This document shows, one piece after another, positions 28,572 to 58,054 of a stretch of 64,000 nucleotides of DNA. The translations under genes and the position numbers were made by a program. The stretch is taken from the NCBI GenBank assembly GCA_040954595.2, contig CM082589.2:2483175-2547174 (forward strand). Reading direction: 5' to 3'. The notes beneath the pieces were generated by a model, which had not been told where the DNA came from, searched no databases, and worked only from the letters and a program-made list of their open reading frames with translations. How positions within the stretch are numbered: position 1 is the first letter of the stretch; each line of letters starts with the position of its first letter. Source of the DNA: Balanoglossus misakiensis (lineage: Eukaryota; Animalia; Hemichordata).

Positions 28572-28600
28572 GGTCTGTCTGTCTGTCTGTCTGTCTGTCA
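28572..28600. repeat. (CTGT)n microsatellite
   Basis: gtctgtctgtctgtctgtctgtctgtc. Confidence 0.8.
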
Positions 28601-28911
28601 CTCTGCTTCTGTTTCTCACACATTTCCTCTGTCTGTCTCTTTCATATTTTAACCGACCGAAATAGCAGACGACAAAGCCCACACATTTGAAATGACCCTT
28701 CAGAACAAGCTGATACCAGCTTAATGACCATGCGTAAGGCATACAATATAGCATGATATTTAAACAAATAGATTTGCACGTTACTGTATTGTTTGCGGGT
28801 AAATCTACATTTTCAGACTTCTAGATTTATAGATTGTTTAGCCTATCTAAAACGTGTTTCGATGTTTTTGTGTAAATCGCTGAGATATTTTGTGGCGGCG
28901 TCGACGAAGGC

Positions 28912-30033: not shown

Positions 30034-30800
30034 CATGGTAACTGTGTGGATTTACGTGTACTGGGCATTGATCGATGGATCAGGGTGAAGGTGAAAATAT
30101 TTATGTTTTATGGAAAGTGTCATTGTATATATGTTGATAAAAAAATGAATAAAACTTATTGGTACGCTTTCCACCATTAAAACTAAATTTCATTAAAATA
30201 CAACAGTAGCTCCGTGGAGCGAGACTATTATGTTCCATGTTTTTCTATGGTAACCCAGCCATTAATCTTTCTGGCGTCAGATGGATTGGATATGATAATC
30301 GTTTTATATGTACATACATGTGTCATGTGGTCATATCAAACTCTTTGTAAAGGAACGGGTTGCATATCACTATAAATCTGCCATTGTGGTTTGGTGAACA
30401 GACAGACACAAATTAATGCAACTGACCGTTAAGTAGGTCTCTCCGCCATTTCATATTTGTCTTCAGAAACAATTTCTGAATACAGTGCTGCCACGTAAGT
30501 ATTATTTACATTCAATTTTTATTGAAATTTCTTTTTCGTAGAATAATTTTGATAAATTCATTCAACTATTGGCCCCATTTGCCTAGCCATTAACAGTCAA
30601 TAAAAAACTAATGCAAACATTAAATATTGATATTTATATGATTTATATACAATCGCTAGGCTTCAACGTGAACACATATTATACAAGTGTGTAGGCTATC
30701 GTCTGAAAAAATGTACAGGCTCAACTTCTCCCATCTTGTTCAAACTCGCAGCTATAGCCACCACATGTAGCCTGACTGTGATTCATCCAAGCCGTCACAT

Positions 30801-36118: not shown

Positions 36119-39100
36119 TTATTGGGCAAACACTTTAATGCAGTGATTGGTTTGGTCAACTACAGCCACTCTGCATGGGACATCATTGGTCAGTGTGATA
36201 CCATGTGGCCACCCAAGTCCATCCTCATCACTGTCAATGCGAGATATGAATCTGCCTTTGCTGTCGAACTTCACCACGCGTTTGTTTCCTTTGTCACAGA
36301 CATACACATTTCCGTCTTTATCTGTCACTATTCCCGATGGCCAATTCAGGCTGACATCTGCGCTGATGTTGCGAAATGAGTATAAAAACTCACAGTCTGC
36401 ATTGAACACCTGAACTCGGTAATTGTTCATATCTGATACAAATGCTTCTCCTCGACTGTTGATATCCACATATGAAGGTCCGAAGAATTCTCCCTCTTTA
36501 GTGCCATACTTTCCAAAGGATTTGATGTGCTGACCTTGCTGTGTGTATTTCCTGATACAGTGACTACCTTCCTTGTCTGTGGCATCACCCTTTCCATCCC
36601 AGTCTGTGACATACACACTGCCATCTAGAGGACTGATACCAATTCCATCGGCATGTTTCAGTTCAGGTTGTCCAAAGTGCCTGAGTACATGTCCATCCTC
36701 ATCGCTTACAACTACTTGATTGTTGCCCTTATCTGTCATGAAGTATTCGTCATCAGCTGATACTGACACATCGTTTGGTTGAAATGGTTTCTCAAACTGT
36801 GTGAACGTTAAACTTGATTTGTAATTTCCATCTCTGTCGGCTATGTGTACCCTGTTGTTACCTTTATCAGCTGTAACAAAGTCGCCGCGTTTATTAGTAG
36901 TTATCCCTAATGGCCTTCTAAGCTGACCTTTGCCTATTATCTTCACCAAACCCTTGACAGAAATTACAAATGGTGATCCTGGTATCGGCTGATCACCAAG
37001 GGTTATGGTGACTTCATGTCTACCACCAACATCTGCATGAATTCTCAGACTGTGTGTACCATCTCTGTTGTCAACCACTCCAACGTTTTCTTGTGACCCA
37101 TCTTCTTTGCAGATCTTTGCTGTGATTGCTTTGTGTGGTATGACTGGTTTCCCTCTTCTGTATTCAATTCTGACAATGACGTCAGCAGACTCACCCCTGA
37201 CGAGTCTTTTGGGAATATCCTCTACTCTACACTGTGATGCACTGATATCGAGTTCCAGGAATCCCAACAGTCCATGCTGCAGAGGGTCTTCAGAAGGGTT
37301 GAATCTAACTATTTCCGTTTTTATGAATTGATTCATTTGATGAACAAATTCATGAATGTGAAGCAGAGTTTGTTTCTTTGATGACATTAGGTGAGCAGAA
37401 CTCCCATCATTCACCAGTGCTTCCATGTAATCGCATGCCTTGGAAATACTTCCATGTTTTTCTTCCCAATCATCCACTTCAGTTTCGATGGTGTGTCTGA
37501 TCATCTTGTATTCATCTTTCATCTCTTCAACCAGTCTGAACTCTTCCCTCTTCACCATTTTTATTATCTTCTTTGCTTTATTTCTCACTTTCTCCTCTTC
37601 CTCTTGACGATGTACTTCTAGGTCATCTTTGATACCCTCACCTCCAGTGTCACGTGACTTGACGGCCTGTTCATTTCTTCTCAACTTCGTCACCATCTCT
37701 CTCAGTTGTTTTCTGTAATCATCAGCGGCAACTTGTATCTGTCTGTGGACATGGTCAGGAATAGGATGTGCAGTGATACATTCAGGACAGATGCATACTT
37801 GACAACTATCACAAAACAGATGTACTTCATTCTGTGTGTGAAAGCTGCAGTACACTTGACCTTGTTGTGATTGCTGACTTGATACTTCTTTCAAGTATTT
37901 GTCAAGTTTGACGTCACTCTGACCTTTGACAGCTTTTGTGTCTTCATGGACAGTTATACAGGAAGAACAAAACTTGGCACTGCACTCTCTGCATCTATGT
38001 AGCGATTCAGTTTCTTTGCAACCTTCACATTGACCTATTTCTAAATCTTCGGTTTTCTCTGTTTCTTTTGCAAAACTCGCCTTCAAAGAATAAGTTGTGA
38101 AAAATATATATTATTAAACAATTTAAGTGAGTGGTATTCCTGATTAAAAATATTCATGACACTTTTTGGTATCATTGTCGAAGGCTTATACTTATGAAAA
38201 ATGATCTCGAGAATCAAAGTATAATAAACACGTGACAAAGCAGTATATTATATGATGTACGTTGTTAAAACAGTTTACTTGAACATACATGTATAGTGAT
38301 TTCAACCCGATGATGTTCACGTAATGTACACCAAACTTTATATTCCACTGGAAATGATTACCTGGGTATTAAATGTTTACTTACTGTTGAGAGCGCACCT
38401 CGTTTTGTTCTCTCACGAACTGCAATTTTTTCAGCTAGATCTTTTTCAACCTGCAGTCGTTTGATTTCGGCTTGCTGAATTGATTCTGTCTGCTTCAGTT
38501 CAGCAATCTGTGCAGCGTTAAAGTTAGCTTGCTTCTTGAGTTTTTCTAGCTGATCTTTGACTTCGTCTGTGTCTATTTCTAAGTCCTCAGTTTTGTGTGC
38601 TTCCTTTGCAATACTTGCCTATAAAGAAAAGATTGTGATATTTGTATTATTAAACAATTTAAAAGTACTGATGCCAATAAAATGTCTCTCTTTTGTGGCA
38701 ACACGCTTGAAGATAATTAGTCAAGTAAAAAAACACGACAAATAGTTGTATTTGATAGTAAAATTTGCAATGCATAAATGACAAAATACGGTTAGTGTCA
38801 TTTCAGTAGTTTTTGTTTTGTGTATGAACTAAAATACACAATGAAAAAGGGGCCACATGGCTTAAATTTAGTCAGTAAAGAAATTAATTTTTTGCCAATG
38901 GTTTTTCTATTGGCGAACACATTCAACAAAACACATTCAAGAAAGTTTATCTCCTAATTGAGCACGGTGACTATATTATTTTTTTGACCAGTGAATTTAA
39001 TTTCATTTGGAAGAACTATGAGTAAAACTTCATGAAAATGACAAAATCAGAAGCAATCAGACGATAAATATGTCTTAAAAAGCTTAAAAAGTGTGTACCT

Positions 39101-41732
39101 ATATCTTAGCTTGGCGCCAAGTTTTACTTTTAAATCCATTACTAGTTTACATACCGTCAGTCGATTGATTTCTTCTTCACATTCTGCCTTTGTAATTTGA
39201 AGATTCTTAATCACATTTTGGTCTGCAGCATGCTTCAATGCCACGAGCTTCACTACAGCTTTACTGTAATTTAGGGCCACCTACAAAATATACATAATAC
39301 ATGCATCCTTTTATCAGACTTTGCTCATGTCAAGAATATAAGACTTGCAACATGTTCGGATATAAATCGCTTGATTCTGTTGAGCGATAAATTTCTTCCA
39401 CTCCATGGCGACACATCAGAGTCGAAATCGGTTGAACGGATGTAGGATGTAGGTCTACATTAAGAATGTCATTGTATGTATCGGTAAACTAAATTTTGGT
39501 AAGTTGAGCATCAAAGTCTAATTGATAAGTCTTTATAGACAGCTACATTACTACGGTTGCATTCGGACTGGAGTCCATATTATCATTAGTAAATAGTACT
39601 AGTCACAACCTAGGCGACTAAGGTCAACCTTATGACCCTGACAACCCATGAATGTTGATAACATATCGTTTGGTCAAAGGTGATTATTGATATTCTGAAA
39701 CTGACCCCACCTGAGTGATATGGGTCATGGATTCCCGAGTGGCCGAAAATATACTTTATAGAATAAACTTATAAGGGCATGGGAATCGCGTCAGTTGACT
39801 ACGTGCACTTACCAAAGACGTCGACACAAGTTTCATTTTCATATTTGCTGCATATTTCTGGTGCTCTGTCTTGAGTTCTGCTGCATATTTGGAAGCTGTC
39901 TCCTTCTCTGCTTTGAGTTCTTTGATTCTGTGCTGTGATGCCTGGAGAAGAGACCTTCTGCCGAATTCTGATATTTCATTTAAAGTCGGCCAGACTGTTG
40001 ACATCAAGTTCAGTACATCGATACAAGGAAATCTCAGTGTGATGGACTGCAATCTTCTGTTTCTTGCGTTCTCTGTGTGTAAACAAAATATTTAAATATC
40101 GGGATGCACATATACCACAGCTACTATCACATTATACTCAGGGTACAGCAACAAGAAAATATAGCAAAATTAAATGGTGATATGGGAAATTATAAGCTAT
40201 ATTCGGGCAAAATTATTACTCGAATACGTGTGATGCCGCCAACTGCATAAAGGTATACATTTCGTGATAAGCTGTTTTGATTACAGGCATACAACATCTC
40301 ATTTTATGTAACGTCGATAAAATGCGTTTTAATTGATTACCTTTGAAATATTGTATTCCTATGTCCAACTGTAACTGGTCAACTTGAACAGCTATGTAGA
40401 ATTCAACATTGGATGCTTTGTCTGCAATTAGTGCTTTGATTCTCGGTGATATCAGGATGTCACTCAATTCTTGCTCAACATCGCCATTTCTAAGTCCTTT
40501 TCTGAAGCACTGGATACCATATATCTCAAAAGCTCGAAGTGCTAGGATAACAGATGATATCTTTATCCCCATCAGCTCTATGCGATACTGTTTAAGGGCT
40601 TTATACATCGCCTTGGACTTGTCAGGACATTCTCCTTTCTTGATTTCAGCGATTTCGTATTTGTATATCTCCTTTGCACTCTGGAATAATTCTAATTGTA
40701 TCCATTGCTCTAATTGATCGCCGCGTTTTGCCAGATCTATGCTGACATCAAAATCTGAAATTGTAATGTTTTTGATGAGTTTCAATATACATGTATACAG
40801 AGTGAACTTTTAAAGTATGGACTAAAATCTAATTAATTATCTATCAAAAGTCTCATGTTACTCAGTCTGGCTGTAAAATTCAATGACGCATTACTGATCA
40901 AATACCGACTGATTGCTAGATAAAAACACACAGAGAATAAGGATGCGTTTACTGCTATTCGGGGATGAAGGAATGTCAATTACATTGTAACGGCTTACTA
41001 ATTTTTGACCTCTCAATGCCCCAAATAATACAGAAGGTACTCACCAACGTAGGGCTGCATTTCTGATCCTGGCAGGTCAGTGACACTTGATCGCCTTCTT
41101 CTTTGCCCTTAAGTAAAATAAAATGTAAAAATGCATTGATAAAACTTACAAAGTATCGAAAACAGAGTTACTTGCCAATTTCTCCCGCTGATTTTCAAAA
41201 CCGTTCCCCAAGTTTAAGTACAAGTACCTGACCAGTCCATAAATAAATGCATCACCAAATACCCCACAGGCAGAGTAGAGGACAAGGTGTTATCCTTCTG
41301 TAGTAAAATCATTATTTTTTTAAACGGTAATAAAAGGGAAAGTTATTCACTTTTAAAATAGCTTGTATCTGTCCGTTTGAAGGAATCTGTAGCTGACGCC
41401 ATAATGTGATTGTTATAATGAGGTTCAGTATCCGTAAAAGACTCACCTAATGCGTTCGATTGAAAAGTTTCCACTTTCTTCTTTAGCTCTGGGAGTTTTA
41501 AAAGTCCCATCAGTTCAACCAATACCTCCACGTTCTCTTCGGACACATGACCACTTTCTTCCAATTTCTCAAAAACGTCCATAGCAGTTTCGGTTTTCTC
41601 AACTTCGGTTTTGGTCAGTTGGTTCCCTCTGATTAGCGACTTCATCAGCTTTACATTTTCCTTGCTTAGTTCTTGGTGTAAAGTTAGTAAGAGAATCCTG
41701 AGCGGCGGTATTTTGGTTGACCTAGTCTCCAT
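36119..41732 (-). CDS. DED - TRADD-N-like - coiled coil - B-box x2 - coiled coil - filamin/Ig - NHL repeat protein (RING-less TRIM2/3-like chimera), copy 1, ~1114 aa
   Basis: Exons 41447-41732, 41045-41107, 40341-40754, 39813-40072, 39155-39280, 38385-38618 and 36119-38080. All GT-AG with compatible phases; total 3345 nt. Exon 1 has a DED-type pattern (LRILLLTLHQELSKENVKLMKSLI...AMDVFEKLEESGHVSEENVEVLVELM). B-box2 is CSFH...LFCDSCQVCICPECITAHPIPDHVH. Filamin motif DNRDGTH...GDQPIPGSPF. Six NHL blades. Confidence 0.85.
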
Positions 41733-43888
41733 GCTTATAAAATGGCGTCAACCAACCATAACCATACTCATCTAATCACAATTTTTGTGCATTTTTGCTG
41801 CACCTGAAATAAAATTATACGCCATTTTGGTCAATAAGGACTGTTGAACTTTACAACAGAACAGGGCGGAGCATTAACACGTAAACATAGTCAATGATTT
41901 ATTGCATAGGTCTGGGACTAATTGGAGAAATGAAATAACAACATGTTCTTGTAAATATATAACGATGCAGATGGGGGGGGGGGGGGGGTGATGTTAGTCT
42001 AATGTAACTTCGTCGCCGCGAATGTGAAGATAGAAGGCCCGCAACATTACAAACTACAGTGTTCCGTATCAACCATAAAAATTTGATTGGTATCAAAATC
42101 ACTTATGTCCTGAACCCACAATATGAATGTTCAGAAAAATCTGTCTATAAATCATTGCTAACTGCCAATATTTTAAAGTCATATATCCAAACTTATATTG
42201 AAATCTATGTATCAGGCGGCTAGTATAGTCCTTGTCAACATGACAAAGACTATACTGTACAGCCATAGGCATGAGATACAAAACCAATTAAATCAACATC
42301 CACGATCTACATTACTTGTTTGTCTGATTCTAAATATACACCAGGTCGAAGTGTAGATTTAGCTTATATCCGCCGACAAACGTTTCTGTACGTTTATCAA
42401 CTTGTGGCGTACTGGGCAGGTCGCCAGCTTTGGCTCCAGAAGTCGATCGATTGGTGGGTCTCTCCTTATGTCTAAGGTAAAGTCAATAAATGTTAGCAGA
42501 CACTAGTACGCGTTGTTTTAGAACTTTATCAGTGAGACATGTCCTGACACAACAATGCATAGCTGAACTGCCAGTCTGCTGTTTGGCAACAGTGGAACTT
42601 GTATTAGACTAGCGGAGTAGGTTAAAATGGGCCACAATTTGAAACGGGGAGAGGTGTGGCGCAGAATTGTCTGTGTTCACACACACCTGTACGCAGAGCT
42701 ATAAGTAATGTGGTAGTAGCTTTGGCTTGTAAGTAGATGAGGAGTGTTTATTTTGTTTGGCAAATGAACTCAACTTCGAGGTTGGCGCCATTTTTAACGT
42801 TGGAAATAACTTTCGTCTATTCGTCTAATTACTGGCACAGGTCGCAGCACCCGAGCCTGCGCAGATTTACGGCACGCCGAAGCCTTGACACTCGGGAAAG
42901 ATTTTCTACCTTTGCTCTAATATCTGGGGTAGTTCGTCCTGTCATTGTTGTGTAGATTAGGTAAAGGTAACTATATTAAAATGTTGTGTGTTTAGATAAA
43001 AAGTGAAAACAAATAAACTTCTCCAAGTTAAAAGGGCGCGTTTACATCTTCGAAGTTTGTTGGCACATTTCTTCATAGTGTAAACATAGTGAATTATCAT
43101 GAATATGGGGACTGGGCAGTGGTCGGGGAGTCGATGCGTTCTCAAAGCGCCACCAATATAATGTCTATTCGAAAGTATGCGGTATGCAGTAGAGTATACG
43201 GTGAAAATCTAATAATGTGGTCAGAAACCGCACGACACTTTATCAGTGAGACATGTCCTGACACAAAAATGCATAGCTGAACTGCCAGTCCGCCGTTTGG
43301 CAACAGTGTAGAAAATAGTTAGAAAAATCTATCGGTGAGCATATCAAACAGTCGATATTACAAGATCATCTTGTCCTCGAACTTGAAAAGTCTCCAAGCA
43401 TGAATCTGTATGCAAATTTAACAAACTCCCGAAAAGATTATCATTCTTTCGCACAAACAGGAATTTTGTGTAACACGGTCAGCATCAGTACAGTACCACG
43501 TTACTCGAATTAGGGTCACAACATCCACAGGGGATGGGCGTTTTATGTGAACTATAAACTTGATTGAAATAGCTGACTAGCTGACACGAAAGTAACATAA
43601 ATGCCACCATATTATAAAAACACAGGAATTATAATCTATCAAGTTCAAATCTCTGTCAGGCATGAGACGTTTCCCAGTTTGTGATTTACAGGAAGTGAAT
43701 AACTCAGTCTTCAGTTTGATTGTTCACTCATGAGTTATTGTGGAACATTTGCACAATTTGACTCCAGTTTTTATGCCTATTGTCCTTCATATTCAGTGAC
43801 CACTATTTGTGTGCAAGTATAGGTGAAACCCTCACCATTTCTTTTTTGTCTTTGTCATTTTCGTGATGCACAACGTTTACAGAAGTGT

Positions 43889-46800
43889 TTATTGGGCAAA
43901 CACTTTAATGCAGTCATTGATGCAGTCAACTACAGCCACTCTGCATGGGACATCATTGGTCAGTGTGATACCATGTGGCCACTCAAGTCCATCCTCATCA
44001 CTGTCAATGCGAGATATGAATCTGCCTCTGCTGTCGAACTTCACCACGCGTTTGTTTCCTCTGTCACAGACATACACATATCCGTCTTCATCTGTCACCA
44101 CTCCCCTAGGGAATTTCAGGCTGACATCTGCGCTGATGTTGCGTAATGAGTACAAAAACTCACAATCTGCATTGAACACCTGAACACGGTTATTGTTTAT
44201 ATCTGATACAAATGCTTCTCCTCGACTGTTGATATCCACATATACAGGTCCGAAGAATTCTCCCTCTTCAGTGCCATGTTTTCCAAAGGATTTGATGTGC
44301 TGACCTTGCTGTGTGTATTTCCTGACACAGTAACTACCTTCCTTGTCTGTGTCATCACCCTTTCCATCATAGTCTGTGACATACACACTGCCATCTAGAG
44401 GACTGATACCAATTCCTTGGGCATATTTCAGTTCAGGTTTTCCGAAGTGTCTGAGTACTTGTCCATCCTCATCGCTTACAACTACTTGACTGTTGCCCCG
44501 ATCAGTCATGAAGTATTCATCATCAGCTGATACTGACACATCCTTTGGTTGAAAGGGCTTCTCAAACTGTGTGAATGTTAAACTTGATTTGTAATTTCCA
44601 TCTCTGTCGGCTATGTGTAGCCTATTGTTATCTCTATCAGCTGTAACAAAGTCGCCGTGTTTATTAGTAGTTATCCCTAATGGTCTGTCAAGCTGACCTT
44701 TGCCTATTATCTTCACCAAGCCCTTGACAGAAATTACAAATGGTGATCCTGGTATCGGCTGATCACCAAGGGTTATGGCGACTTCATGTCTACCACCGAC
44801 ATCTGCGTGAATTCTCACACTGTGTGTACCATCTCTGTTGTCAACCACTCCAACGTCTACTTGTGACCCATCTTCTTTACAGAACTTTGCTGTGATTGCT
44901 TTGTATGGAATGACTGGTTTTCCTCTTCTGTCTTCGATTCTGACAATGACGTCAGCAGACTCACCCCGGACGAGTCTTTTGGGAATATCCTCTACTCTAC
45001 ACTGGGATGCACTGATATCGAGTGTCAGAAATCCCAGCATTCCATGCTGCAGAGGGTCAGCAGAAGGATGGAATTTGATTAACTCGGATTTTATGAACTG
45101 ATTCACTTTATGAACAAATTCTTGAATGTGAAGCAGAGTTTGTTTCTTTGACGACATTAGGTGAGCAGAACTCCCATCATTCACCAGTGCGTCAATATAA
45201 TCGCATGCCTTGGAAATATTTCCATGTTTTTCTTCCCAATCATCTACTTCAGTTTCGATGGTGTGTCTGATCATCTTGTATCCAAGTTTCATCTCTTCAA
45301 CCAGTCTGAACTCTTCCCTCTTCACCATTTTTAGTATCTTCTTTGCTTTATTTCTCACTTTCTCCTCTTCCTCTTGACGATGTACTTCCAGGTCATCTTT
45401 GATACCCTCACCTCCAGTGTCACGTGACATGACGGCCTGTTCAGTTCCTCTCAACTTCACCACCATCTCTCTCAGTTGTTTTCTGTAATCATCAGCGGCA
45501 ACTTGTATCTGTCTGTGGACATGGTCAGGAATAGGATGTGCAGTGATACACTCAGGACAGATGCATACTTGACAGCTATCACAAAACAGATGTACTTCAT
45601 TCTGTGTGTGAAAGCTGCAGTACACTTGACTTTGTTGTGATTTCTGACTTGATATTTCTTTCAAGTATTTGTCAAGTGTGACGTCACTCTGACCTTTGAC
45701 TGCTTCTGTGTCCTCATGGACAGTTATACAGGAAGAACAAAACTTGGCACTGCACTCTCTGCATCTATGTAGCGATTCAGTTTCTTTGCAACCTTCACAT
45801 TGACCTATTTCTAAATCTTCGGTTTTCTCTGTTTCTTTTGCAAAACTCGCCTTTAAAGAAAAAGTTGTGAAAAATATATATTATTAAACAATTTAAGGGA
45901 CTGGTTTTCCTGATTAAAAATATTCTGACACTTTTTGGTATCATTGTCGAAGGCTTAAATTTATGAAAAAACGATCTCGAGAATCAAAGTATAATAAACA
46001 CGTGACAAAAGCAGTATATTATATGCTGTACGTTATTAAAACAGTTTACTTGAACATACATGTATAGTGATTTCAACCCGATGATGTTCACGTAATGTAC
46101 ACCAAACTTTATATTCCATTGGAAATGATTATCTGGGTATTAAATGTTTACTTACTGTTGAGGGCGCACCTCGTTTTGTTCTCTCACGAACTGCAATTTT
46201 TTCAGCTAGCTCTTTTTCAATCTGCAGTCGTTTGATTTCGGCTTGCTGAATTGATTCTGTCTGCTTCAGTTCAGCAATCTGTGCAGTGTTAATGTTGGCT
46301 TGCTTCTTGAGTTTTTCTAGCTGATCTTTGATTTCGTCTGTGTCTATTTCTAAGTCCTCAGTTTTGTGTGCTTCCTTTGCAATACTTGCCTATAAAGAAA
46401 ATATTGTGATATTTGTATTATTAAACAATTTAAAAGTATTGATGCCAATAAAATGTCTCTCTTTTGTGGCAACACGCTTGAAGATAATTAGTCAAGTAAA
46501 AAAAACACGACAAATAGTTGCATTTGATAGTAAAATTTGCAATGCATAAATGACAAAATACGGTTAGTGTCATTTCAGTAGTTTTTGTTTTGTGTATGAA
46601 CTAAAATACGCAATGAAACAGGGGTCACATAGCTTAAATTTAGTCAGTAAAGAAATGAAGTTTTCACCAATGGTTTTTCTATTGGCGAACACATTCAACA
46701 AAGTTTATCTCCTAATTGAGCACGGTGACTATATTATTTTTTTGACCAGTGAATTTAATTTCATTTGGAAGAACTATGACTAAAACTTCATGAAAATGAC

Positions 46801-49489
46801 AAAATCAGAAGCAATCAGACGATAAATATGTCTTAAAAAGCTTAAAAAGTGTGCACCTATACCTTAGCTTGGCGCCATGTTTTACTTTTAAATCCGTTAC
46901 TATTTTACATACCGTCAGTCGATTGATTTCTTCTTCACATTCTGCCTTTGTGATTCGAAGATCCTTAATCACATTTTGGTCTGCAGCATGCTTCAATGCC
47001 ACGAGTTTCACCACAGCTTTACTGTAATTTAGGGCCACCTACAAAATATACATAATACATGCACCCTTTTATCAGACTTTGCTCATGTCAAGAATATAAG
47101 ACTTGCAACAGGTTCGGATATAAATCGCTTGATTCTGTTGAGCGATAAATTTCTTCCACTCCATGGCGACACATCAGAGTCGAAATCGGTTGAACGGATG
47201 TAGGCCTTGGTCTACATTAAGAATGTCATTGTATGTATCGGTAAACTACATTTTTGTAAGTTGAGCGTCAACGTCTAATTCTTAAGTCTTTATAGACAGG
47301 TACATTACTACGATTGCATTCGGACTGGAATCCATATTATCATTAGTAAATAGTACTAGTCACAACCTAGGCGACTAAGGTCAACCTTATGACCCTGACA
47401 ACCCATGAATGTTGATAACATATCGTTGGGTCAAAGGTGATTATTGATATTCTGAAACTGACCCCACTTGAGTGATATGGGTCATGGATTCCCGAGTGGC
47501 CGAAAATATACTTTATAGAATAAACTTATAAAGGCATGGGAATCGCGTCAGTTGACTACGTGCACTTACCAAAGACGTCGACACAAGTTTCATTTTCATA
47601 TTTGCTGCATATTTCTGGTGCTCTGTCTTGAGTTCTGCTGCATATTTGGAAGATGTCTCCTTCTCTGTTTTGAGTTCCTTGATTCTGTGTTGTGATGCCT
47701 GGAGAAGAGACCTTCTGCCGAATTCTGATATTTCATTTAAAGTCGGCCAGACTGTTGACATCAAGTTCAGTACATCGATACAAGGAAATCTCAGTGTGAT
47801 GGACTGCAATCTTCTGTTTCTTGCGTTCTCTGTGTGTAAACAAAATATTTAAATATCGGGATGCACATATACCACAGCTACTATCACATTATACTCAGGG
47901 TACAGCAACAAGAAAATATAGCAAAATTAAATGGTGATATGGGAAATTATAAGCTATATTCGGGCAAAATTATTACTCGAATACGTGTGATGCCGCCAAC
48001 TGCATAAAGGTATACATTTCGTGATAAGCTGTTTTGATTACAGGCATACAACATCTCATTTTATGTAACGTCGATAAAATGCGTTTTAATTGATTACCTT
48101 TGAAATATTGTATTCCTATGTCCAACTGTAACTGGTCAACTTGAACAGCTATGTAGAATTCAACATTGGATGCTTTGTCTGCAATTAGTGCTTTGATTCT
48201 CGGTGATATCAGGATGTCACTCAATTCTTGCTCAACATCGCCATTTCTAAGTCCTTTTCTGAAGCACTGGATACCATATATCTCAAAAGCTCGAAGTGCT
48301 AGGATAACAGATGATATCTTTATCCCCATCAGCTCTATGCGATACTGTTTAAGGGCTTTATACATCGCCTTGGACTTGTCAGGACATTCTCCTTTCTTGA
48401 TTTCAGCGATTTCGTATTTGTATATCTCCTTTGCACTCTGGAATAATTCTAATTGTATCCATTGCTCTAATTGATCGCCGCGTTTTGCCAGATCTATGCT
48501 GACATCAAAATCTGAAATTGTAATGTTTTTGATGAGTTTCAATATACATGTATACAGAGTGAACTTTTAAAGTATGGACTAAAATCTAATTAATTATCTA
48601 TCAAAAGTCTCATGTTACTCAGTCTGGCTGTAAAATTCAATGACGCATTACTGATCAAATACCGACTGATTGCTAGATAAAAACACACAGAGAATAAGGA
48701 TGCGTTTACTGCTATTCGGGGATGAAGGAATGTCAATTACATTGTAACGGCTTACTAATTTTTGACCTCTCAATGCCCCAAATAATACAGAAGGTACTCA
48801 CCAACGTAGGGCTGCATTTCTGATCCTGGCAGGTCAGTGACACTTGATCGCCTTCTTCTTTGCCCTTAAGTAAAATAAAATGTAAAAATGCATTGATAAA
48901 ACTTACAAAGTATCGAAAACAGAGTTACTTGCCAATTTCTCCCGCTGATTTTCAAAACCGTTCCCCAAGTTTAAGTACAAGTACCTGACCAGTCCATAAA
49001 TAAATGCATCACCAAATACCCCACAGGCAGAGTAGAGGACAAGGTGTTATCCTTCTGTAGTAAAATCATTATTTTTTTAAACGGTAATAAAAGGGAAAGT
49101 TATTCACTTTTAAAATAGCTTGTATCTGTCCGTTTGAAGGAATCTGTAGCTGACGCCATAATGTGATTGTTATAATGAGGTTCAGTATCCGTAAAAGACT
49201 CACCTAATGCGTTCGATTGAAAAGTTTCCACTTTCTTCTTTAGCTCTGGGAGTTTTAAAAGTCCCATAAGATCAACCAATACCTCCACGTTCTCTTCGGA
49301 CACATGACCACTTTCTTCCAATTTCTCAAAAACGTCCATAGCAGTTTCGGTTTTCTCAACTTCGGTTTTGGTCAGTTGGTTCCCTCTGATTAGCGACTTC
49401 ATCAGCTTTACATTTTCCTTGCTTAGTTCTTGGTGTAAAGTTAGTAAGAGAATCCTGAGCGGCGGTATTTTGGTTGACCTAGTCTCCAT
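43889..49489 (-). CDS. DED - TRADD-N-like - TRIM-NHL chimera, copy 2
   Basis: Exons 49204-49489, 48802-48864, 48098-48511, 47570-47829, 46913-47038, 46156-46389 and 43889-45850. Exon sizes are identical to copy 1 and the frame is open upstream of the ORF-track start. Confidence 0.85.
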
Positions 49490-52339
49490 GCTTATAAAAT
49501 GGCGTCAACCAACCATAACCATACTCATCTAATCACAATTTTTGTGCATTTTTGCTGCACCTGAAATAAAATTATACGCCATTTTGGTCGATAAGGACTG
49601 TTGAACTTTACAACAGAACAGGGCGGGAGCATTAACACGTAAACATAGTCAATGATTTATCGCAAAGGTCTGGGACTAATTGGAGAAATGAAATAACAAC
49701 ACGTTCTTGTAAATATATAACGATGCAGATGGGGGTGGGGGGGTGATGTTAGTCTAATGTAACTTCGTCGCCGCGAATTTGAAGATAGAAGGCCCGCAAC
49801 ATTACAAACTAGTGTTCCGAATAAACCATTAAATTTTGATTGGTATCAAAATCACTTAAGTCCCGAATCCAGAATACATGAATGCTTCAGAAAAATCTGT
49901 CTATAAATCATTGCTAACTGCCAATATTTTAAAGTCATATATCCAAACTTATATTGGAATCTATGTATCAGACGGCTAGTATAGTCCTTGTCAACATGAC
50001 AAAGACTATACTGTACAGCCATAGGCATATCTACATTACTTGTTTGTCTGATTCTAAATGTACACCAGGTCGAAGTGTAGATTTAGTAACGAGCTTATTC
50101 GCCGACAAAGTTTATCAACTTGTGGCGTACTGGGCAGGTCGCCAGCTTTGGCTCCAGAAGTCGATAAATTGGTGGGTCTCTCCTTATGTCTAAGGTATTA
50201 TCAATAAATGTTAGCAGACACTAGTACGCGTTGCTTTATAACTTTATCAGTGAGACATGTCCTGACACAAAAATGCATAGCTGAACTGCCAGTCTGCCGG
50301 TTGGCAACAGTGGAACTTGTATTAGACTAGGGGAGTAGGTTAAAATGGGCCACAATTTGAAACGGGGAGAGGTGTGGCGCAGAATTGTCTGTGTTCACAC
50401 AGACCTGTACGCAGAGCTATAAGCAATGTAATAGTTGCTTTGGCTTGTAAGTAGATGAGGAGTGTTCATTTTGTTTGGCAAATGAACTCCAACTTCGAGG
50501 TTGGCGCCATTTTTAACGTTGGAAATAACTTTCGTCTATTCATCTAATTACTGGCACAGGTCGCAGCGCCCGAGCCTGCAGTATGCGCAGATTTACGGCA
50601 CGCCGAAGCCTTGACACTCGGGAAAGATTTTCTACCTTTGCTCTAATATCTGGGGTAGTTCGTCCTGTCATTGTTGTGTAGATTAGGTAAAGGTAACTAT
50701 ATTAAAATGTTGTGTGTTTAGATAAAAAGTGAAAATAAATAAACTCAGAATCTCCAAGTTAAAGGGGCGCGTGTAAGTCTTCGAAGTTTGTTGGAACACT
50801 TCTTCATAGTAACAGAGTGAATATGGGGACCGGACCGGGCAGTGGTCGGGGAGTCGATGCGTTCTCAAAGCGCCACCAATGTCTATTCCAAAGTATGCGG
50901 TATGCAGTAGAGTATGCGTTGAAAATCTAATAATGTGGTCAGAAACCGCACGACACTGAAATGTCCAATTACTCCACGGGAAGTCACTCTTGACCCAGTA
51001 GTGGAAAAACCGACCGTGTGTGCAACTTAAGAATTTCACAGCTGAAATCAAGTTCACCAACGTCGAGTCATTCATAGAAGGATACGAGAGAGATGAGACT
51101 GGAATTTCACTTCGCTTTTGTCACCGTTATTCTGTTGTTTCTCGTCCTTTTAGGTGAGTACAATAGAATTTCGTTGGGTATATTAGGAGAGTAAAATATT
51201 TGGCAAGAAGCATAAATTTCAAGCAATATTTCATAACTTTTTCCGCGCACATTTACAGGGTGGGTGTAGTCCCGTCTGCGGATATGCGTCCCCATACCAC
51301 ACAGTCGAGTGTCAAGTCAAACTATACAATGCGTTATTACTATTTATCACATTTCCAATTTACTTTGAAATGACATTTACATGTACGTTGACAGGGTCTC
51401 TCAATGCTGATGATGTGTTTATAAATGGAAAAGTCGCCCATGTGAAGTTCAGGCGACCATCTCCCTTTAAAGCGACCAGTCTGTCGTATCAGATCAAAAG
51501 TCACCAAGACTGCGCGTTTATTCCTTAGTAAACGCTCTGAGAAGTTACTCTTTTGATACATTCTGTTTTTTTGCGTTTGGTACATCAATCGGCACCAGTG
51601 CTAAAGAAAAACTGCATTAACACAAGCAAGCTTCTGAGTCATAACCTTCACACTGACTTCAATTAACTCACAAGTCAACATATGTTTTTGATGTCCTTAC
51701 ACTTCAGAAAGCACTGCCTTGGCCATTTGACTAAAAACAAAGTACTTAGAAAAATCTATCGGTGAGCATATCAAACAGTGATTACAAAATCATCTTGTCC
51801 TCGAACTTGAAAAGTCTCCAAGCATGAATTTAAATAAAACAAGAATATGTATGCAAATTTAACAAACTCCCGAAAAGATAATCATTCTTTCGCACAAACA
51901 GGAATTTTGTGTAACGCGGTCAGCATCAGTACAGTACCACGTTACTCAAATTAGGGTCACCACATCCACGGGAGATGGGCGTTTTATGTGAACTATAAAC
52001 TTGATTGAAATAGCTGACGACGGAGTAATTTCTGTCATGCAAGACGCACGAAAGTAACATAAATGCAACCACATTATAAAAAACAAAGGAATTATAATCT
52101 ATACCCCAAGTTCAAATCGCTGTCAGGCATGAAACGTTTCCCAGTTTGTGATTTATAGGAAGTGAATAACTCAGTCTTCAGTTTCATTGTTCCCTCGTGA
52201 GTTATTGTGGAACATTTTCACAATTTGACACCAGTTTCTATGCCTATTGTCCTTCATATTCATGACCCACTATTTGTGAAACTCTCACAATGTCTTTGAT
52301 TTTTGTCACTTTCAGGATACACAACTTTTGCTGCTGTGT

Positions 52340-55300
52340 TTATTGGGCAAACACTTTAATGCAGTCATTTTCATGGTCAACTACAGCCACTCTGCATGCC
52401 ACATCATTGGTCAGTGTGATACCAGCTGGCCACTCAAGTCCATCCTCATCACTGTCAATGCGAGATATGAATCTGCCTCTGCTGTCTAACTTCACCACGC
52501 GTTTGTTTCCTTTGTCACAGACATACACATATCCGTCTTTATCTGCCACTATTCCCCTTGGCCATTTCAGGCTGTCATCTGCGCTGATGTTTCCAAATGA
52601 GTATAAAAACTCACAGTCTGCACTGTAAACCTGAACACGGTAATTGTTCATATCTGATACAAATGCTTCTCCTCGACTGTTGATATCCACATATCCAGGT
52701 CCTTTGAATTCTCCCTCTTCAGTGCCATGCTTTCCAAAGGATTTGATGTGCTGACCTTGCTGTGTGTATTTCCTGACACAGTGACTACCTTCCTTGTCTG
52801 TGTCACCAGCCTTTCCATCCCAGTCTGTGACATACACACTGCCATCTAGAGGACTGATAGCAATTCCTTGGGCATATTTCAGTTCAGGTTTTCCGAAGTG
52901 CCTGAGTACTTGTCCATCCTCATCGCTTACAACTACTTGATTGTTGCCGTCATCTGTCATGAAGTATTCGTCATCAGCTGATACTGCCACTTTGTTTGGT
53001 AGAAAGGGCTTCTCAAACTGTGTGAACGTTAAACTTGATTTGTCATTTCCATCTCTGTCGGCTATGTATACCCTATTGTTACCCCAGTCAGCTGTAACAA
53101 AGTCGCCGTGTTTATTAGTAGTTATCCCTACTGGCCTTCTAAGCTGACCTTTGCCTATTACCTTCACCAAACCCTTGACAGAAATTACAAATGGTGATCC
53201 TGGTATCGGCTGATCACCAAGTGTTATGTTGACTTCATGTCTACCACCGACATCTGCGTGAATTCTCAGACTGTGTGTACCATCTCTGTTGTCAATAACT
53301 CCAATGTCTTTTTGTGACCCATCTTCTTTGCAGATCTTTGCTGTGATTGCTTTGTGTGGTGTGACTGGTTTCCCTCTTCTATCTTCGACTCTGACAATGA
53401 CGTCAGCAGACTCACCCCTGACGAGTCTTGTGGGAATATCCTCTACTCTACACTGGGATGCACTGATATCTAATGTCAGTAATCCCAGCATTCCATGCTG
53501 CAGAGGGTCAGCAGAAGGATGGAATTTGATTAACTCGGATTTTATGAACTGATTCACTTTATGAACAAATTCATGAATGTGAAGCAGAGTTTGTTTCTTT
53601 GATGACATTAGGTGAGCAGAACTCCCATCAATCACCAGTGCTTCCATGTAATCGCATGCCTTGGAAATATTTCCATGTTTTTCTTCCCAATCATCCACTT
53701 CAGTTTCGATGGTGTGTCTGATCATCTTGTATTCATCTTTCATCTCTTCAACCAGTCTGAACTCTTCCCTCTTCACCATTTTTATTATCTTCTTTGCTTT
53801 ATTTCTCACTTTCTCCTCTTCCTCTCGATGATGTACTTCCAGGTCATCTTTGATATCCTCACCTCCAGTGTCACGTGACATGACGGCCTTTTCAGTTCCT
53901 CTCAACTTCGCCACCATCTCTCTCAGTTGTTTTCTGTAATCATCAGCGACATCGTGTATCTGTCTGTGGACATGGTCAGGAATAGGATGTGCAGTGATAC
54001 ACTCAGGACAGATGCATAGTTGACAGCTATCACAAAACAGATTTACTTCATTCTGTGTGTGAACGCTGCAGTATGCTTGACTTTGTTGTGATTGCTGACT
54101 TGATATTTCTTTCAAATATTTGTCGAGTGTGACGTCACTCTGACCTTTGACTGCTTCAGTGTCCTCGTGGACAGTTATACAGGAAGAACAAAACTTGGCA
54201 TTGCACTCTCTGCATCCATGTAGCGATTCAGTTTCTTTGCAACCTTCACATTGACCTATTTCTAAATCTTCGGTTTTCTCTGTTTCTTTTGCAAAACTCG
54301 CCTTTAAAGAAAAAGTTGTGAAAAATATATATTATTAAACAATTTAAGGGAGTGGTATTCCTGATTAAAAATATTCATGACACTTTTTGGTATCATTGTC
54401 GAAGGATTAAACTTATGAAAAACGATCTCGAGAATCAAAGTATAATAAACACGTGACAAAAGCAGTATATTATATGCTGTATGTTATTAAAACAGTTTAC
54501 TTGAACATACATGTATAGTGATTTCAACCCGATGATGTTCACGTAATGTACACCAAACTTTATATTCCACTGGAAATGGTTATCTGGGTATTAAATGTTT
54601 ACTTACTGTTGAGGGCGCACCTTGTTTTGTTCTCTCACGAACTGCAATTTTTTCAGCTAGCTCTTTTTCAACCTGCAGTCGTTTGATCTCGGCTTGCTGC
54701 ATTGATTCTGTCAGCTTCAGATCAGCAATCTCTGCAGTGTAAATGTTGGCTTGCTTCTTGAGTTTCTCTAGCTGATCTTTGACTTCGTCTGTGTCTATGT
54801 CTAAGTCCTCAGTTTTGTGTGCTTCCTGTGCAATAATTGCCTATAAAGAAAAGATTGTGATATTTGTATTATTAAACAATTTAAAAGTATTCATGCCAAT
54901 AAAATGTTTCTCTTTTGTGGCAACACGCTTGAAAATTATTAAAGTAAATAATGTTTTTTCTATCGGTGAACACATTCACCAAAGTTTATCTCCTAATTGA
55001 GCACGGTGACCATATGATTTTTTGGACCAGTGAATTTAATTTCATGGGAAGAACTATGAGTATAACTTCATAAAAAGACAAAATAAGAAGCTTTCTGGCA
55101 TTTCTCAATTTAATCCCATTGGCTTACATATGACCGTCCCGTGTTTCGATTTTTCAATCAGACGATAAATATGTCTTTAAAAGCTTAAAAGTGTGCACCT
55201 ATACCTTAGCTTGGTGCCAAGTTTTACTTTTAAATCCGTGGCTATTTTACATACCGTCAGTCGATTGATTTCTTCTTCACATTCTGCCTTTGTGATTCGA

Positions 55301-58054
55301 AGATCCTTAATCACATTTTGGTCTGCAGCATGCTTCAATGCCACGAGTTTCACTACAGCTTTACTGTAATTTAGAGCCACCTACAAAATATACATAATAC
55401 ATGCACCCTTTTATCAGACATTGCTCATGTCAAGAATCAAGACTTGCAACAGGTTCGGATATTAATCGCTTGATTCTGTTGAGCGAAAAATTTCTTCCAC
55501 TCCATGGCGACACATCAGAGTCGAAATCGGTTGAACGGATGTAGGCCATGGTCTACATTAAGAATATGTCATTGTATGTATCGGTAAACTACATTTTGGT
55601 AAGTTGAGCGTCAAAGTGTAATTGATAAGTCTTTATAGACAGGTACATTACTACGATGGCATTCGGACTGGAGTCCATATTGTCATTAGTGAATAGTACT
55701 AGTCACAACCTAGGCGACTAAGGTCAACCTTATGACCCTGACAACCCATGAATGTTGATAACATATCGTTGGGTCAAAGGTGACTGTTGATATTCTGAAA
55801 CTGACTCACCTGCGTGTAGGGATCGTGGAATACCGAGTGGTCGAAAATATGCATTATAGAATTAAACATTGGTGAGGGGGGGGGGGGGGGGGGGGTCGTG
55901 AATCGTGTCAATTTACTTCGTGCACTTACCAGAGACATCGACACAAGTTTCATTTTCATATTTGCTGCATATTTGGAAGATGTCTCGTTGTCTGTTTTGA
56001 GTTCTTTGATTCTGTTCTGGTGCTCTGCTTTGAGTTCTTTGATTCTGTGTTGTGATGCCTGGAGAAGAGACCTTCTGCCGAATTCTGATATTTCATTTAT
56101 AGTCGGCCAGATTGTTGACATCAAGTTCAGTACATCGATACAAGGAAATCTCAGTGTGATGGACTGCAATCTTCTGTTTCTTGCGTTCTCTGTGTACACA
56201 CATAGCGATGTATTAGTCATAATAATGTTAAGCAACACGTTTGGCTCACGTGAAGTTTGGGCCTCTGTGGTTATATTTAATTCATTACAAGGCTGTCATC
56301 TTTAACGAGGCATATCTTACCATTTCTGTCAAGCATACATGAATAATATTGCTAGATGAGTTATGTATTAAACAGAACAGTGTCACTGACATGTTTGAAT
56401 GTTACAATAGTATTCAGCACTTCAGGAAAACACACCTTGCACGATCTTGGACAAACTCGCTATAATTTACAAGTCGATTCACTTGACGCTTAGTTTTGTC
56501 TGTTTGCGCTATATATATGTTTGACTCTAAGGAAAATAATGCAAAAGACGAATATCCTATTTTCAATTGCCCTTTACGACGGTTTAAGGCATCAAAAATA
56601 TCAGCAGAAAAGTTTAGGTCTATGGTATTTGTTTCCATGCACTTACCTTCAAAGTATTCCATGCCCCTTTCTAATTCAGCGTGGTCAACCAGTGCAGCTA
56701 TTTCTAACAGCCCCTCTCTTTTCACAAGCATCTTCATACTATTGGAAATAAGTATGTCGGAAAGCAGGCGCTCCAGATCACCACAGTCCAGCCCTTTTTT
56801 GAAACACTGTATGTTACTCCGACTGAAGGTTCGCAAAATCAGAATAACGGACGACATCTGGATACGTATTAACTTGGCTTGGTAACGGTCAAAGGCCTTG
56901 TCGAGTAATTTCGATTTGTCTGGATTATTGCCATTCTTAATTTCTTCCACCTCAACTTCAAATATCTTCTTCGCGGCTTCATATAAATGGGCTTCTATCT
57001 GTTGTTTTTGTTGGATTTGAAGTTCTAGCCGGAAATCTGTAAAAAAATACACAAAGGCGATTAAATTGTATAATCTGTTACTGGTATCACACTTCAAAAT
57101 ATTTGTTGAAAAAGTCTACTTTCTTCAACCAATAAGCAATCGGTATAAATAATGATACGTTCTAAAATATCGGATCCGGTCACGCTATCTCGGCTATTAA
57201 AGTTGATTTTCTAATGACTCAGCAAAAGTATACCATTGCCAGTGATGGAGGAAATGAATAGCATTCGTTTCGCACTGGCGGAAGCTGACAATGCATGGGG
57301 TCGTAAAGGGTTCAGGCAGTCAAATAGTGAAGTACGCTTTTCACTTTAATGGAACTGTCTGGGCTTCGCGAACCGGGCCAGCACACACAACAACATCGTC
57401 TATATGCACTCAGAACCACTTGATCATTAAAGGCGTTGGTCGTACGTGAATTAACGCCACCAAATGCACTTGCAAATTTAACCACAGTTACCTTGGAACT
57501 TACCCCAATAGGGACTAGCCTTGTCCATTTCTTGTCCAGGACGATCAGCATCACTGTAACGCCGTCGTTTCTCTACTAAAGAAAACAGAACATGCATTGT
57601 GATTAATTAAACATGTATTGAAAATGCATGAAAATATCCGTTTTCATTTTAAAAATAACGGCTGGAATTGTTCTTAAAAACGGAAAAAAAATATTCAGGA
57701 CAAACAACATGTACCCTGTGCTGGCCTCCAGTCAAAGGGTTATAAATAGAACTGTCACTCACCTACAGCTACCGCACCAGATTGAAAATTTTCAACTTTT
57801 TCCTTTAGCCGTGGACGCTTCAAATGATCCATTAATTCGATGACTAGTCCAAGATTAGTTGCAGATATATATCCACGTGTTTCCAAATGTACGAATAGGC
57901 TCATTGCAGTTTTCGTCTTCTCTGCGTCTTCTTCGCTTAACTGGCGACCGTAAAGTAGGAGTTTCATCGTAGATACTTCTTCGCCGCTAAGTTCGCTCTG
58001 TAATGCTAGAAAAAGTGACCTCAATGGGCAAACGTTGGTCACACTCACTTCCAT
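52340..58054 (-). CDS. DED - TRADD-N-like - TRIM-NHL chimera, copy 3, with divergent N-terminal exons
   Basis: Exons 57763-58054, 57504-57575, 56647-57036, 55930-56189, 55255-55380, 54607-54840 and 52340-54301. The DED exon reads MEVSVTNVCPLRSLFLALQSELSGEEVSTMKLLL...AMSLFVHLETRGYISATNLGLVIELMDHLKRPRLKEKV. Intron phases match copies 1 and 2. Confidence 0.83.

What the first reader, a model, noticed from the sequence alone, without database searches (positions are those of the whole stretch)
36119..53170. NHL substitutions among the three copies concentrate on the predicted ligand-binding top face
Seen (copy 1/2/3): RRPLG/DRPLG/RRPVG; ADKGNNRVH/ADRDNNRLH/ADWGNNRVY; QPNDV/QPKDV/LPNKV; TDKGN/TDRGN/TDDGN; KHADG/KYAQG/KYAQG; TDWDG/TDYDG/TDWDG; FGPSY/FGPVY/KGPGY; SDMNNY/SDINNN/SDMNNY; NWPSG/KFPRG/KWPRG; GWPHG/EWPHG/EWPAG; VDQTNH/VDCIND/VDHEND. 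Beta-strand cores are nearly invariant, while copies 1 and 2 have an identical TRADD-like exon and a DED with one difference. Established: residues around the 'P.G' and 'D..N' loops form the top surface that Brat and LIN-41 NHL domains use to bind RNA. Inference: radical charge and aromatic changes at exactly these sites in almost every blade suggest diversifying selection on ligand specificity, as in immune receptors.
Basis: partly seen in the sequence, partly recalled or inferred. Interest (0 to 1): 0.82.

Follow-up and report, generated by a model that had tools for sequence, protein, structure and literature searches.

The report
Acorn-worm TRIM-NHL sensors with hypervariable face
Three tandem genes, most likely from an acorn worm, join a cell-death signalling module to a six-bladed propeller whose predicted binding face has changed its amino acids about six times faster than neutral, as expected of a family of likely immune sensors tracking changing targets.

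Summary
The window has three intact six-exon genes (DED, TRADD-N, coiled coils, B-boxes, filamin, NHL; no RING). Their closest relatives are all from acorn worms. I fixed 30 top-face codons from the five blade positions that hold all 14 LIN41-RNA contacts. Of these, 21 of 30 differ among the copies, against 32 of 247 other NHL codons and 7 of 57 bottom-loop codons. dN/dS is 6.2 there and about 0.5 elsewhere (p 1e-13), and 4.6 when multi-base mutations are allowed. Weaker results: p 0.03 with a free local synonymous rate; blind site tests fall to p about 0.1 with multi-base mutations. The same positions are enriched in 18 of 21 close paralog pairs from three other acorn-worm species. Two corrections. 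The identity of copies 1 and 2 at DED/TRADD-N extends through two introns, so it reflects gene conversion or assembly, not constraint. Copy 3 carries a different, anciently diverged DED-TRADD-N cassette. The LIN41 RNA-binding residues are mostly absent, so the ligand is open. Immune sensing is inferred (0.65). It resembles TRIM5/finTRIM diversification, but on an NHL propeller, which my searches did not find described.

The parts
36119..41732 (-). Copy 1 gene, six exons (41732-41447, 40754-40341, 40072-39813, 39280-39155, 38618-38385, 38080-36119), 1093 aa
   Evidence: GT/AG introns and no internal stop; exon order guided by tblastn with P0003; not confirmed by RNA
43889..49489 (-). Copy 2 gene, six exons (49489-49204, 48511-48098, 47829-47570, 47038-46913, 46389-46156, 45850-43889), 1093 aa
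52340..58054 (-). Copy 3 gene, six exons (58054-57763, 57036-56647, 56189-55930, 55380-55255, 54840-54607, 54301-52340), 1087 aa
36122..36952 (-). Copy 1 six-bladed NHL propeller, with the 30 top-face codons (codon j starts at 38110-3(j-1))
   Evidence: AlphaFold2 pLDDT 96.4, pTM 0.93; best structural match TRIM3 NHL, Z 40.7, rmsd 1.9, 266 aligned; Pfam NHL hit obtained for copies 2 and 3
43892..44722 (-). Copy 2 NHL propeller
   Evidence: Pfam PF01436 E 7.8e-19; coordinates
52343..53173 (-). Copy 3 NHL propeller
   Evidence: Pfam PF01436 E 2.5e-19; coordinates
36953..38080 (-). Copy 1 B-boxes, coiled coil and filamin domain (same exon as the NHL; equivalent stretches in copies 2 and 3)
   Evidence: Pfam zf-B_box and Filamin above cut-off in copies 2 and 3; first B-box and coiled coil read from the sequence
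41447..41732 (-). Exon 1, death effector domain (copy 2: 49204-49489; copy 3: 57763-58054)
   Evidence: Pfam PF01335 E 1.1e-13 (copy 1) and 5.5e-15 (copy 3)
40341..40754 (-). Exon 2, DEDD2-clade TRADD-N domain (copy 2: 48098-48511; copy 3: 56647-57036)
   Evidence: ESM Atlas 0.94 to clusters with PF20694 on 54-62% of members; profile hits P0071 (E 7.5e-15) and P0082 (E 1e-4) are Saccoglossus loci listed as DED+TRADDN-DEDD2 in PMC8195603 supplement 4; no direct Pfam hit
39934..41510 (-). 1577-base tract without a difference between copies 1 and 2, two whole introns included (conversion tract or assembly collapse)
   Evidence: chance of 0 differences in 962 intron bases at the 3.4% of introns 3-5 is 4e-15
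56196..58480 (-). Divergent DED-TRADD-N cassette of copy 3 (2285 bases), in place of the 3009-base block 47836-50844 of copy 2
   Evidence: no blastn alignment apart from a 53-59 base patch in the DED, flanks 90% and 93% identical, fourfold sites 11 of 18 and 14 of 19 different; proteins 47-49% identical

Best explanation
[quoted passage not shown] Shown: the architecture, the fold, the excess of amino-acid change at five positions per blade, the same pattern in three other acorn-worm species, and exchange of DNA between copies. Inferred: the B-box/coiled-coil part would dimerise and present two propellers; binding of a repetitive foreign ligand would cluster the dimers; the clustered DEDs would then recruit FADD/caspase-8-like DED proteins, with TRADD-N as switch or adaptor, giving cell death or inflammatory signalling. 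The RING-bearing relatives would use the same variable sensor with ubiquitin as output. The ligand is most likely a pathogen protein or nucleoprotein surface, not a LIN41-type RNA hairpin; nucleic acid or glycan is not excluded.
For: 21 of 30 vs 32 of 247 and 7 of 57. Fixed-site dN/dS 6.2 vs 0.47 (other NHL) and 0.55 (non-NHL), LRT 55.5, p 1e-13; 4.6 with multi-base changes, p 1e-7. It survives NHL-only analysis (6.9), the 14 direct LIN41 equivalents alone (6.8, p 1e-7), removal of any one blade (5.2-6.9) and removal of the six strongest sites (3.5, p 3e-5). Blind M1a-M2a and M7-M8 give p 6e-7; 6 of 6 sites with posterior above 0.95 and 11 of 15 above 0.5 lie in the 30-codon set. Nucleotide divergence is 28-34% at these codons vs 5.7-6.0% at fourfold sites. 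18 of 21 disjoint paralog pairs from P. flava, G. talaboti and S. kowalevskii show the enrichment, 17 at p<0.01; pooled 301 of 607 vs 158 of 1172 bottom-loop comparisons. 61 of the 68 homologs aligned are acorn-worm paralogs. The DED-bearing genes form one clade (support 0.984) among RING-bearing TRIM-NHLs. DED-TRADD-N dyads joined to propellers are proposed invader sensors in marine invertebrates (PMC8195603, sections 11 and 13).
Against: Only three coding sequences, fitted with my own GY94 code and naive empirical Bayes, not PAML. With multi-base changes allowed, the blind tests fall to p 0.096 and 0.095 (M8a-M8 p 0.016). With a free synonymous rate at the 30 codons, p is 0.03 (0.02 with multi-base changes). 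The 30-codon set comes from the LIN41 structure but was written down after I had seen the alignment. The copies recombine (19 differences private to copy 1 in codons 251-310), which can inflate site tests. Three of 21 pairs show no enrichment and one is not significant; the pair test is on proteins and gives no dS. Top-face divergence between old NHL paralogs is also seen in non-immune TRIM-NHLs (PMC5908797, PMC9634614). Positive selection does not name the selective agent. No ligand, expression or signalling evidence.
Confidence: 0.65

Rival explanations
1. Selection is real, but the target is endogenous: transposon or retroelement RNA or particles, or host RNAs, proteins or self-markers to which young duplicates are being retuned.
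For: NHL domains of LIN41, Brat and Mei-P26 bind RNA and change specificity quickly (PMC5908797). The 30 positions hold 6-8 basic, 2-4 acidic and 7 aromatic residues per copy, compatible with nucleic-acid binding. PMC8195603 names retroelements among possible triggers. Fungal HNWD propellers with four selected top-face positions per repeat act in allorecognition (PMC2873952).
Against: The same positions diversify repeatedly in four species, which fits a continuing arms race better than one-off retuning. A DED output is unexpected for an mRNA regulator (own knowledge). LIN41's basic contacts are mostly lost.
Confidence: 0.18
2. The top face is the target, not the sensor: pathogen inhibitors bind it, and selection favours escape while a conserved host partner is still bound (or the proteins serve as decoys).
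For: PMC8195603 names escape from invader inhibitors as one driver of variability. dN/dS cannot tell pursuit from escape.
Against: Changes hit the pocket positions of all six blades with charge reversals (codons 398, 447, 461), which is hard to square with keeping one host partner; other top loops and bottom loops are not above neutral (0.60 and 0.39).
Confidence: 0.09
3. No positive selection: relaxed constraint in young duplicates, plus multi-base mutations and short conversion tracts from distant paralogs, mimic it.
For: Background dN/dS is high, about 0.5. Multi-base models fit much better and blunt the blind tests. Conversion is evident. Other variants of the gene exist in read-derived contigs.
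Against: Codons with two or more base differences: 12 of 30 at the top face, 3 of 247 elsewhere in the NHL, 14 of 376 outside it; mutation and conversion cannot see protein faces. No significant excess of synonymous changes beside the top codons (7 of 69 vs 10 of 146, p 0.42). The fixed-site test stays at p 1e-7 with multi-base changes. The pattern recurs in three other species.
Confidence: 0.06
4. The three-copy array or its differences are assembly artefacts (haplotypes placed in tandem, collapsed or chimeric repeats).
For: The 1577-base identity of copies 1 and 2 could be a collapse. No listed contig spans the stretch, and at many listed sites no contig showed copy 1's own letter (the tool warns that contigs drop variants).
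Against: 27 of the 31 listed coding variants in read-derived contigs equal the letter of copy 2 or 3, including top-face codons 416, 486, 589 and 633 (40 of 259 variant places were listed, 31 of them coding). All three frames are intact. Errors would not follow the blade register. Even as alleles the sequences would show the same excess.
Confidence: 0.02

Closest known systems
DEDD2-clade DED-TRADD-N proteins of marine invertebrates (Kaur et al. 2021, PMC8195603)
   Same: DED-TRADD-N dyad, lineage-specific expansion, hemichordates included; the supplement lists coral DED+DED+TRADDN+coiled-coil+Filamin+propeller and oyster Ig+DED+TRADDN-NCOA6+BBOX+propeller proteins
   Different: The hemichordate rows I saw (30 of 60 name matches; file cut when stored) held no B-box-filamin-propeller form. 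In the passages read, no selection test or face mapping. The paper treats the dyad as the constant part; here the dyad itself is swapped in copy 3.
TRIM5alpha and fish ftr/btr/trim35 multigene families (PMC3137616)
   Same: Tandemly expanded TRIM scaffold, C-terminal ligand surface under positive selection, recombination among copies
   Different: Their sensor is a B30.2/PRYSPRY sandwich with variable loops and they keep a RING; here it is an NHL propeller with five positions per blade and a DED-TRADD-N output.
TRIM2/TRIM3, LIN41/TRIM71 and Brat NHL domains (PMC5908797, PMC9634614)
   Same: B-box, coiled coil, filamin and six-bladed NHL; same top pocket; best structural matches TRIM3/TRIM2 (Z 40-41) then LIN41/TRIM71 (Z 37)
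   Different: Few-copy regulators whose contact residues are mostly identical among LIN41 orthologs. Database names such as 'TRIM71-like' for the acorn-worm proteins are automatic; the LIN41 basic pocket is not kept.
Podospora HNWD (HET-D/E/R) WD40 propellers (PMC2873952)
   Same: Two pairs of positions per blade on the top of a propeller under diversifying selection, with concerted evolution, coupled to cell death
   Different: Fungal STAND NTPases with near-identical WD40 repeats shuffled within a gene; here the blades are distinct and exchange is between gene copies.

Membership tests
TRIM-NHL (class VII / subfamily C) | N-terminal RING finger | tested here: not met
   No RING family among Pfam hits for the exon frames scanned (exons 1-5 of copy 1, exons 1-2 of copy 3, last exons of copies 2 and 3); none in P0003. 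So TRIM-like, not a canonical TRIM.
TRIM-NHL (class VII / subfamily C) | B-box | tested here: met
   PF00643 25.6 and 27.6 bits, cut-off 24.1
TRIM-NHL (class VII / subfamily C) | Coiled coil that dimerises | not tested
   Inferred from sequence and position between B-box and filamin
TRIM-NHL (class VII / subfamily C) | Filamin domain and six-bladed NHL propeller | tested here: met
   PF00630 and PF01436; model pLDDT 96.4; Z 40.7, rmsd 1.9, 266 aligned to TRIM3 NHL
LIN41/TRIM71 stem-loop RNA binders | Eight Arg/Lys contacts lining the central pocket | tested here: not met
   Basic at 3, 3 and 1 of 8 equivalent positions in copies 1-3 (contacts, mapped by hand through the TRIM71 alignment)
LIN41/TRIM71 stem-loop RNA binders | Binds tri-loop RNA hairpins | not testable with these tools
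   Needs RNAcompete or gel shift
DEDD2-clade DED-TRADD-N immune expansions | Death-fold domain directly followed by a DEDD2-clade TRADD-N domain | tested here: met
   DED; exon 2 profile finds two Saccoglossus proteins classed so in PMC8195603 and four GT4-/LRR-linked proteins of the type described there; Atlas 0.94
DEDD2-clade DED-TRADD-N immune expansions | RRM-like TRADD-N fold | tested here: inconclusive
   Single-sequence model pLDDT 60.6, all helical, not trusted and not searched; no direct PF20694 hit
DEDD2-clade DED-TRADD-N immune expansions | Lineage-specific expansion with varied architectures | tested here: met
   Three tandem copies, four P. flava clade members, two with an annotated DED
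TRIM5alpha/finTRIM-type restriction factors | B30.2/PRYSPRY domain | tested here: not met
   C-terminal domain is NHL; works like them, is not a member
TRIM5alpha/finTRIM-type restriction factors | Positive selection on the C-terminal ligand surface | tested here: met
TRIM5alpha/finTRIM-type restriction factors | Induced by infection and restricts a pathogen | not testable with these tools
   Needs expression and infection assays

The most novel reading that the evidence does not exclude
Acorn worms have built a large germline repertoire of intracellular pattern receptors on the NHL propeller, the counterpart of the vertebrate PRYSPRY TRIM repertoire. Five positions on each of six blades are the specificity code, and whole output cassettes (RING, or alternative ancient DED-TRADD-N pairs) are swapped onto the sensors by recombination, so that specificity and response evolve independently.
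Probability: 0.4. Interest if true: 0.82.

Novelty: new variant of a known kind. Interest (0 to 1): 0.62.

Why it matters
NHL domains are known as RNA- or protein-binding modules of few-copy developmental regulators. A codon-level arms-race signature on their pocket, repeated across acorn-worm species, points to a second route by which TRIM scaffolds became variable sensors, in an invertebrate deuterostome. It gives site-level support to the untested proposal that DED-TRADD-N-propeller proteins recognise invaders. It also supplies a ready experiment: three proteins 87-90% identical in the last exon that differ mostly at 21 defined pocket residues. The many automatically named 'TRIM2/3/71-like' genes of these animals may be such a repertoire.

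Tried and rejected
No whole genome is held for this window, so other paralogs and alleles could not be collected. No RNA holder was listed; this says nothing about expression. A closer view of read variants over blades 1-2 was not obtained. The word-index search with exon 2 found nothing; the profile search did. The single-sequence fold of exon 2 was poor and was not searched. Model coordinates were not returned, so solvent accessibility could not be computed; top and bottom were assigned from DSSP topology and blade register. Depth was not used as copy number. One search chose a wrong acceptor for exon 3 of copies 1 and 2, giving false stops; corrected. Earlier findings: three look-ups returned nothing. 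Literature searches for prior description: hemichordate+TRIM+NHL+expanded 0 papers; NHL+propeller+diversifying selection+paralogs+pathogen recognition 2 papers, on fungal WD40 and fish B30.2; searches listed nothing by title or abstract start on selection in expanded NHL families. PMC4759782 and PMC13554239 have no NHL mention in the main text; PMC3503706 has no Saccoglossus mention. The library lacks most subscription papers. Rejected: purifying selection as the cause of the copy 1/2 N-terminal identity; filing the genes as TRIM71 orthologs; pseudogenes. No complex prediction was run, as no partner is known.
Full report
WHAT IS THERE. The window holds three tandem units of 7.6-8.5 kb. Each carries a minus-strand gene of six exons with GT/AG introns and no internal stop: 1093, 1093 and 1087 aa. 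The gene models come from sequence and homology, not RNA. Pfam gives a DED in exon 1 and B-box, filamin and NHL in the last exon, and no RING in the frames scanned. The 62 best of 70 homologs are from Ptychodera flava, Glandiceps talaboti and Saccoglossus kowalevskii, best 68% identical; the other 8 are amphioxus. The host is therefore inferred to be an acorn worm. P0003 of P. flava has the same architecture.

EXON 2. Pfam misses it. The ESM Atlas ranks TRADD-like_N clusters at 0.94 (a lead only, recognition score below its threshold). A two-sequence profile found 14 proteins. Two are Saccoglossus LOC102805649 and LOC102805146, which supplement 4 of PMC8195603 lists as DED+TRADDN-DEDD2 proteins. 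Others carry DED, GT4 or LRR domains, as that paper describes.

THE OBSERVATION. All 11 motif triplets are in the gap-free alignment. The copy 1 NHL models as a six-bladed propeller (pLDDT 96.4), closest to TRIM3/TRIM2 (Z 40.7, rmsd 1.9, 266 aligned), then LIN41/TRIM71 (Z 37). To define the top face without using the variation, I took the 14 zebrafish LIN41 residues that contact RNA (PMC5908797) and placed them by hand on the TRIM71 alignment. All fall on five blade positions: two before and one after the blade's Pro, and two after its Asp. Across six blades that is 30 codons. I had seen the alignment before writing the set down. Of these 30, 21 differ among the copies, against 32 of 247 other NHL codons, 7 of 57 bottom-loop codons, 12 of 67 other top-loop codons and 13 of 121 strand codons. 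None of 200,000 random draws reached 21, and slid registers gave 2-7.

IS IT SELECTION? I fitted GY94 codon models (own code, three-taxon star tree, 653 codons). With fixed site classes, dN/dS is 6.2 at the 30 codons, 0.47 in the rest of the NHL and 0.55 outside it; against 1, LRT 55.5, p 1e-13, profile interval about 4-10. With double and triple base changes allowed it is 4.6, p 1e-7. With a free synonymous rate at those codons p is only 0.03, as they have few synonymous sites. The result survives NHL-only fitting, the 14 direct equivalents alone, dropping any blade and dropping the six strongest sites; bottom loops give 0.39. Blind models give M1a-M2a and M7-M8 p 6e-7, about 3% of sites at dN/dS 17, with all 6 sites above posterior 0.95 (398, 461, 543, 546, 653, 654) in the set. 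With multi-base changes these blind tests drop to p about 0.1, M8a-M8 0.016. Multi-base codon differences are themselves concentrated on the face (12 of 30 vs 3 of 247 and 14 of 376), and synonymous changes are not significantly raised beside it (7 of 69 vs 10 of 146). A face-blind mutational cause is therefore unlikely.

REPLICATION. I aligned 68 of the 70 homologs (P0062 and P0069 left out). Among the 61 acorn-worm proteins I formed 21 disjoint same-species pairs under 30% divergent outside the 30 positions. In 18 of 21 the 30 positions differ more than the rest, 17 at p<0.01; P0051/P0052, P0031/P0037 and P0010/P0014 do not. Mean entropy is 2.9 bits at the 30 positions and 1.5 in bottom loops. 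This is protein-level only, and some pairs may be alleles or two annotations of one gene. In read-derived contigs of one sample, 27 of 31 listed coding variants equal copy 2 or 3, including four top-face codons, and 4 are in none of the copies, so further alleles or paralogs exist (40 of 259 variant places were listed).

Copies 1 and 2 have no difference from 39934 to 41510, including 962 intron bases, while introns 3-5 differ by 3.4%. This is recent conversion or an assembly collapse, not evidence that the signalling module is constrained. In copy 3, 56196-58480 does not align as DNA with the other copies apart from a short DED patch, although its flanks are 90-93% identical. Its DED and TRADD-N are 47-49% identical to those of copy 1, about as far as from P. 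flava proteins (45-53%), while the last exon is 87% identical to copy 1 and 57% to P0003. An old alternative output cassette thus sits on a young sensor. An NHL tree without the 30 positions (P0056 dropped for gaps) groups the three copies with P0001, P0002, P0021 and P0003 (support 0.984) among RING-bearing TRIM-NHLs, which suggests that DED-TRADD-N replaced a RING; deeper nodes are weak.

LIGAND. Only 3, 3 and 1 of LIN41's 8 basic contacts are basic here, so these are not LIN41-type hairpin binders. The face is mixed, with 6-8 basic, 2-4 acidic and 7 aromatic residues, somewhat like the mixed TRIM2/3 surface (PMC9634614). Protein, nucleoprotein, nucleic acid and glycan all remain possible.

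MECHANISM (inferred). From my own knowledge of TRIM and DED proteins: the coiled coil dimerises, multivalent binding clusters the dimers, and clustered DEDs nucleate assembly with FADD/caspase-8-like proteins. PMC8195603 proposes that propellers in such proteins recognise invaders and trip a TRADD-N switch. None of these steps was tested. I put immune sensing at 0.65, endogenous targets at 0.18, escape from inhibitors at 0.09, no selection at 0.06 and artefact at 0.02.

KNOWN AND NEW. It works like TRIM5alpha/finTRIM families and fungal HNWD propellers but belongs to neither. It belongs with the DED-TRADD-N expansions, where similar coral and oyster architectures are already listed. Divergence of the NHL top face between old paralogs is known. 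I found no report of positive selection on NHL pockets, or of this acorn-worm expansion; the library is incomplete.

PAPERS SEEN. PMC5908797: abstract, parts 2-3 of 10 of the body, and passages. PMC8195603: sections 11 and 13, passages, and searches of its supplements (file 4 cut when stored, file 13 not searched; either could hold a matching architecture). PMC9634614, PMC3137616, PMC2873952, PMC3503706, PMC4759782, PMC13554239: passages only. Others: search listings only. Brat's contact residues were not mapped.

VERDICT. Real feature; interpretation supported with two corrections; new variant of a known kind; interest 0.62.

Noticed in passing
window 56196-58480 vs 47836-50844: Copy 3's DED and TRADD-N exons and introns form a sharply bounded cassette almost unrelated at DNA level to those of copies 1 and 2, inside 90-93% identical flanks. 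The donor was not found.
   Followed up: partly
window about 37180-37360 (codons 251-310 of copy 1): 19 differences private to copy 1 at the coil-filamin linker, likely a conversion tract from a paralog outside the window.
   Followed up: partly
window 38035-38126 and 38573-38662 (and equivalents in copies 2 and 3): The starts of exons 5 and 6, with their acceptor sites, are about 80% identical 92-base duplicates, a possible trace of how the N-terminal module was joined to the TRIM exon.
   Followed up: no
copies 1 and 2, last exon vs introns 3-5: Fourfold sites of the last exon differ by 5.8% (13 of 225), introns 3-5 by 3.4% (46 of 1356); would fit introns being homogenised more than the sensor exon, but the difference was not tested.
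   Followed up: partly
P0051/P0052, P0031/P0037, P0010/P0014: Paralog pairs whose top face is conserved (1 of 30, 0 of 25, 2 of 30 differences): candidate subfamilies with a fixed ligand, or alleles.
   Followed up: no
P0078 (1600 aa): DED, exon-2-like domain, GT4-conflict glycosyltransferase and NHL in one protein; P0021 has DED joined almost directly to filamin-NHL.
   Followed up: no
window 14977-22130: Three related frames; two scanned hit O-fucosyltransferase PF10250, the third (21066-22130, minus) was not scanned.
   Followed up: partly
window 22672-31919: Five related long single-exon frames on both strands that look like carbohydrate sulfotransferases (name recalled, not scanned).
   Followed up: no
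window about 1994-10938, minus: Multi-exon AAA ATPase gene (PF00004), ATAD2-like by recall.
   Followed up: no
window 60831-62353, plus: Exons of a ligand-gated ion channel subunit (PF02931 E 4.5e-6) next to the array.
   Followed up: no
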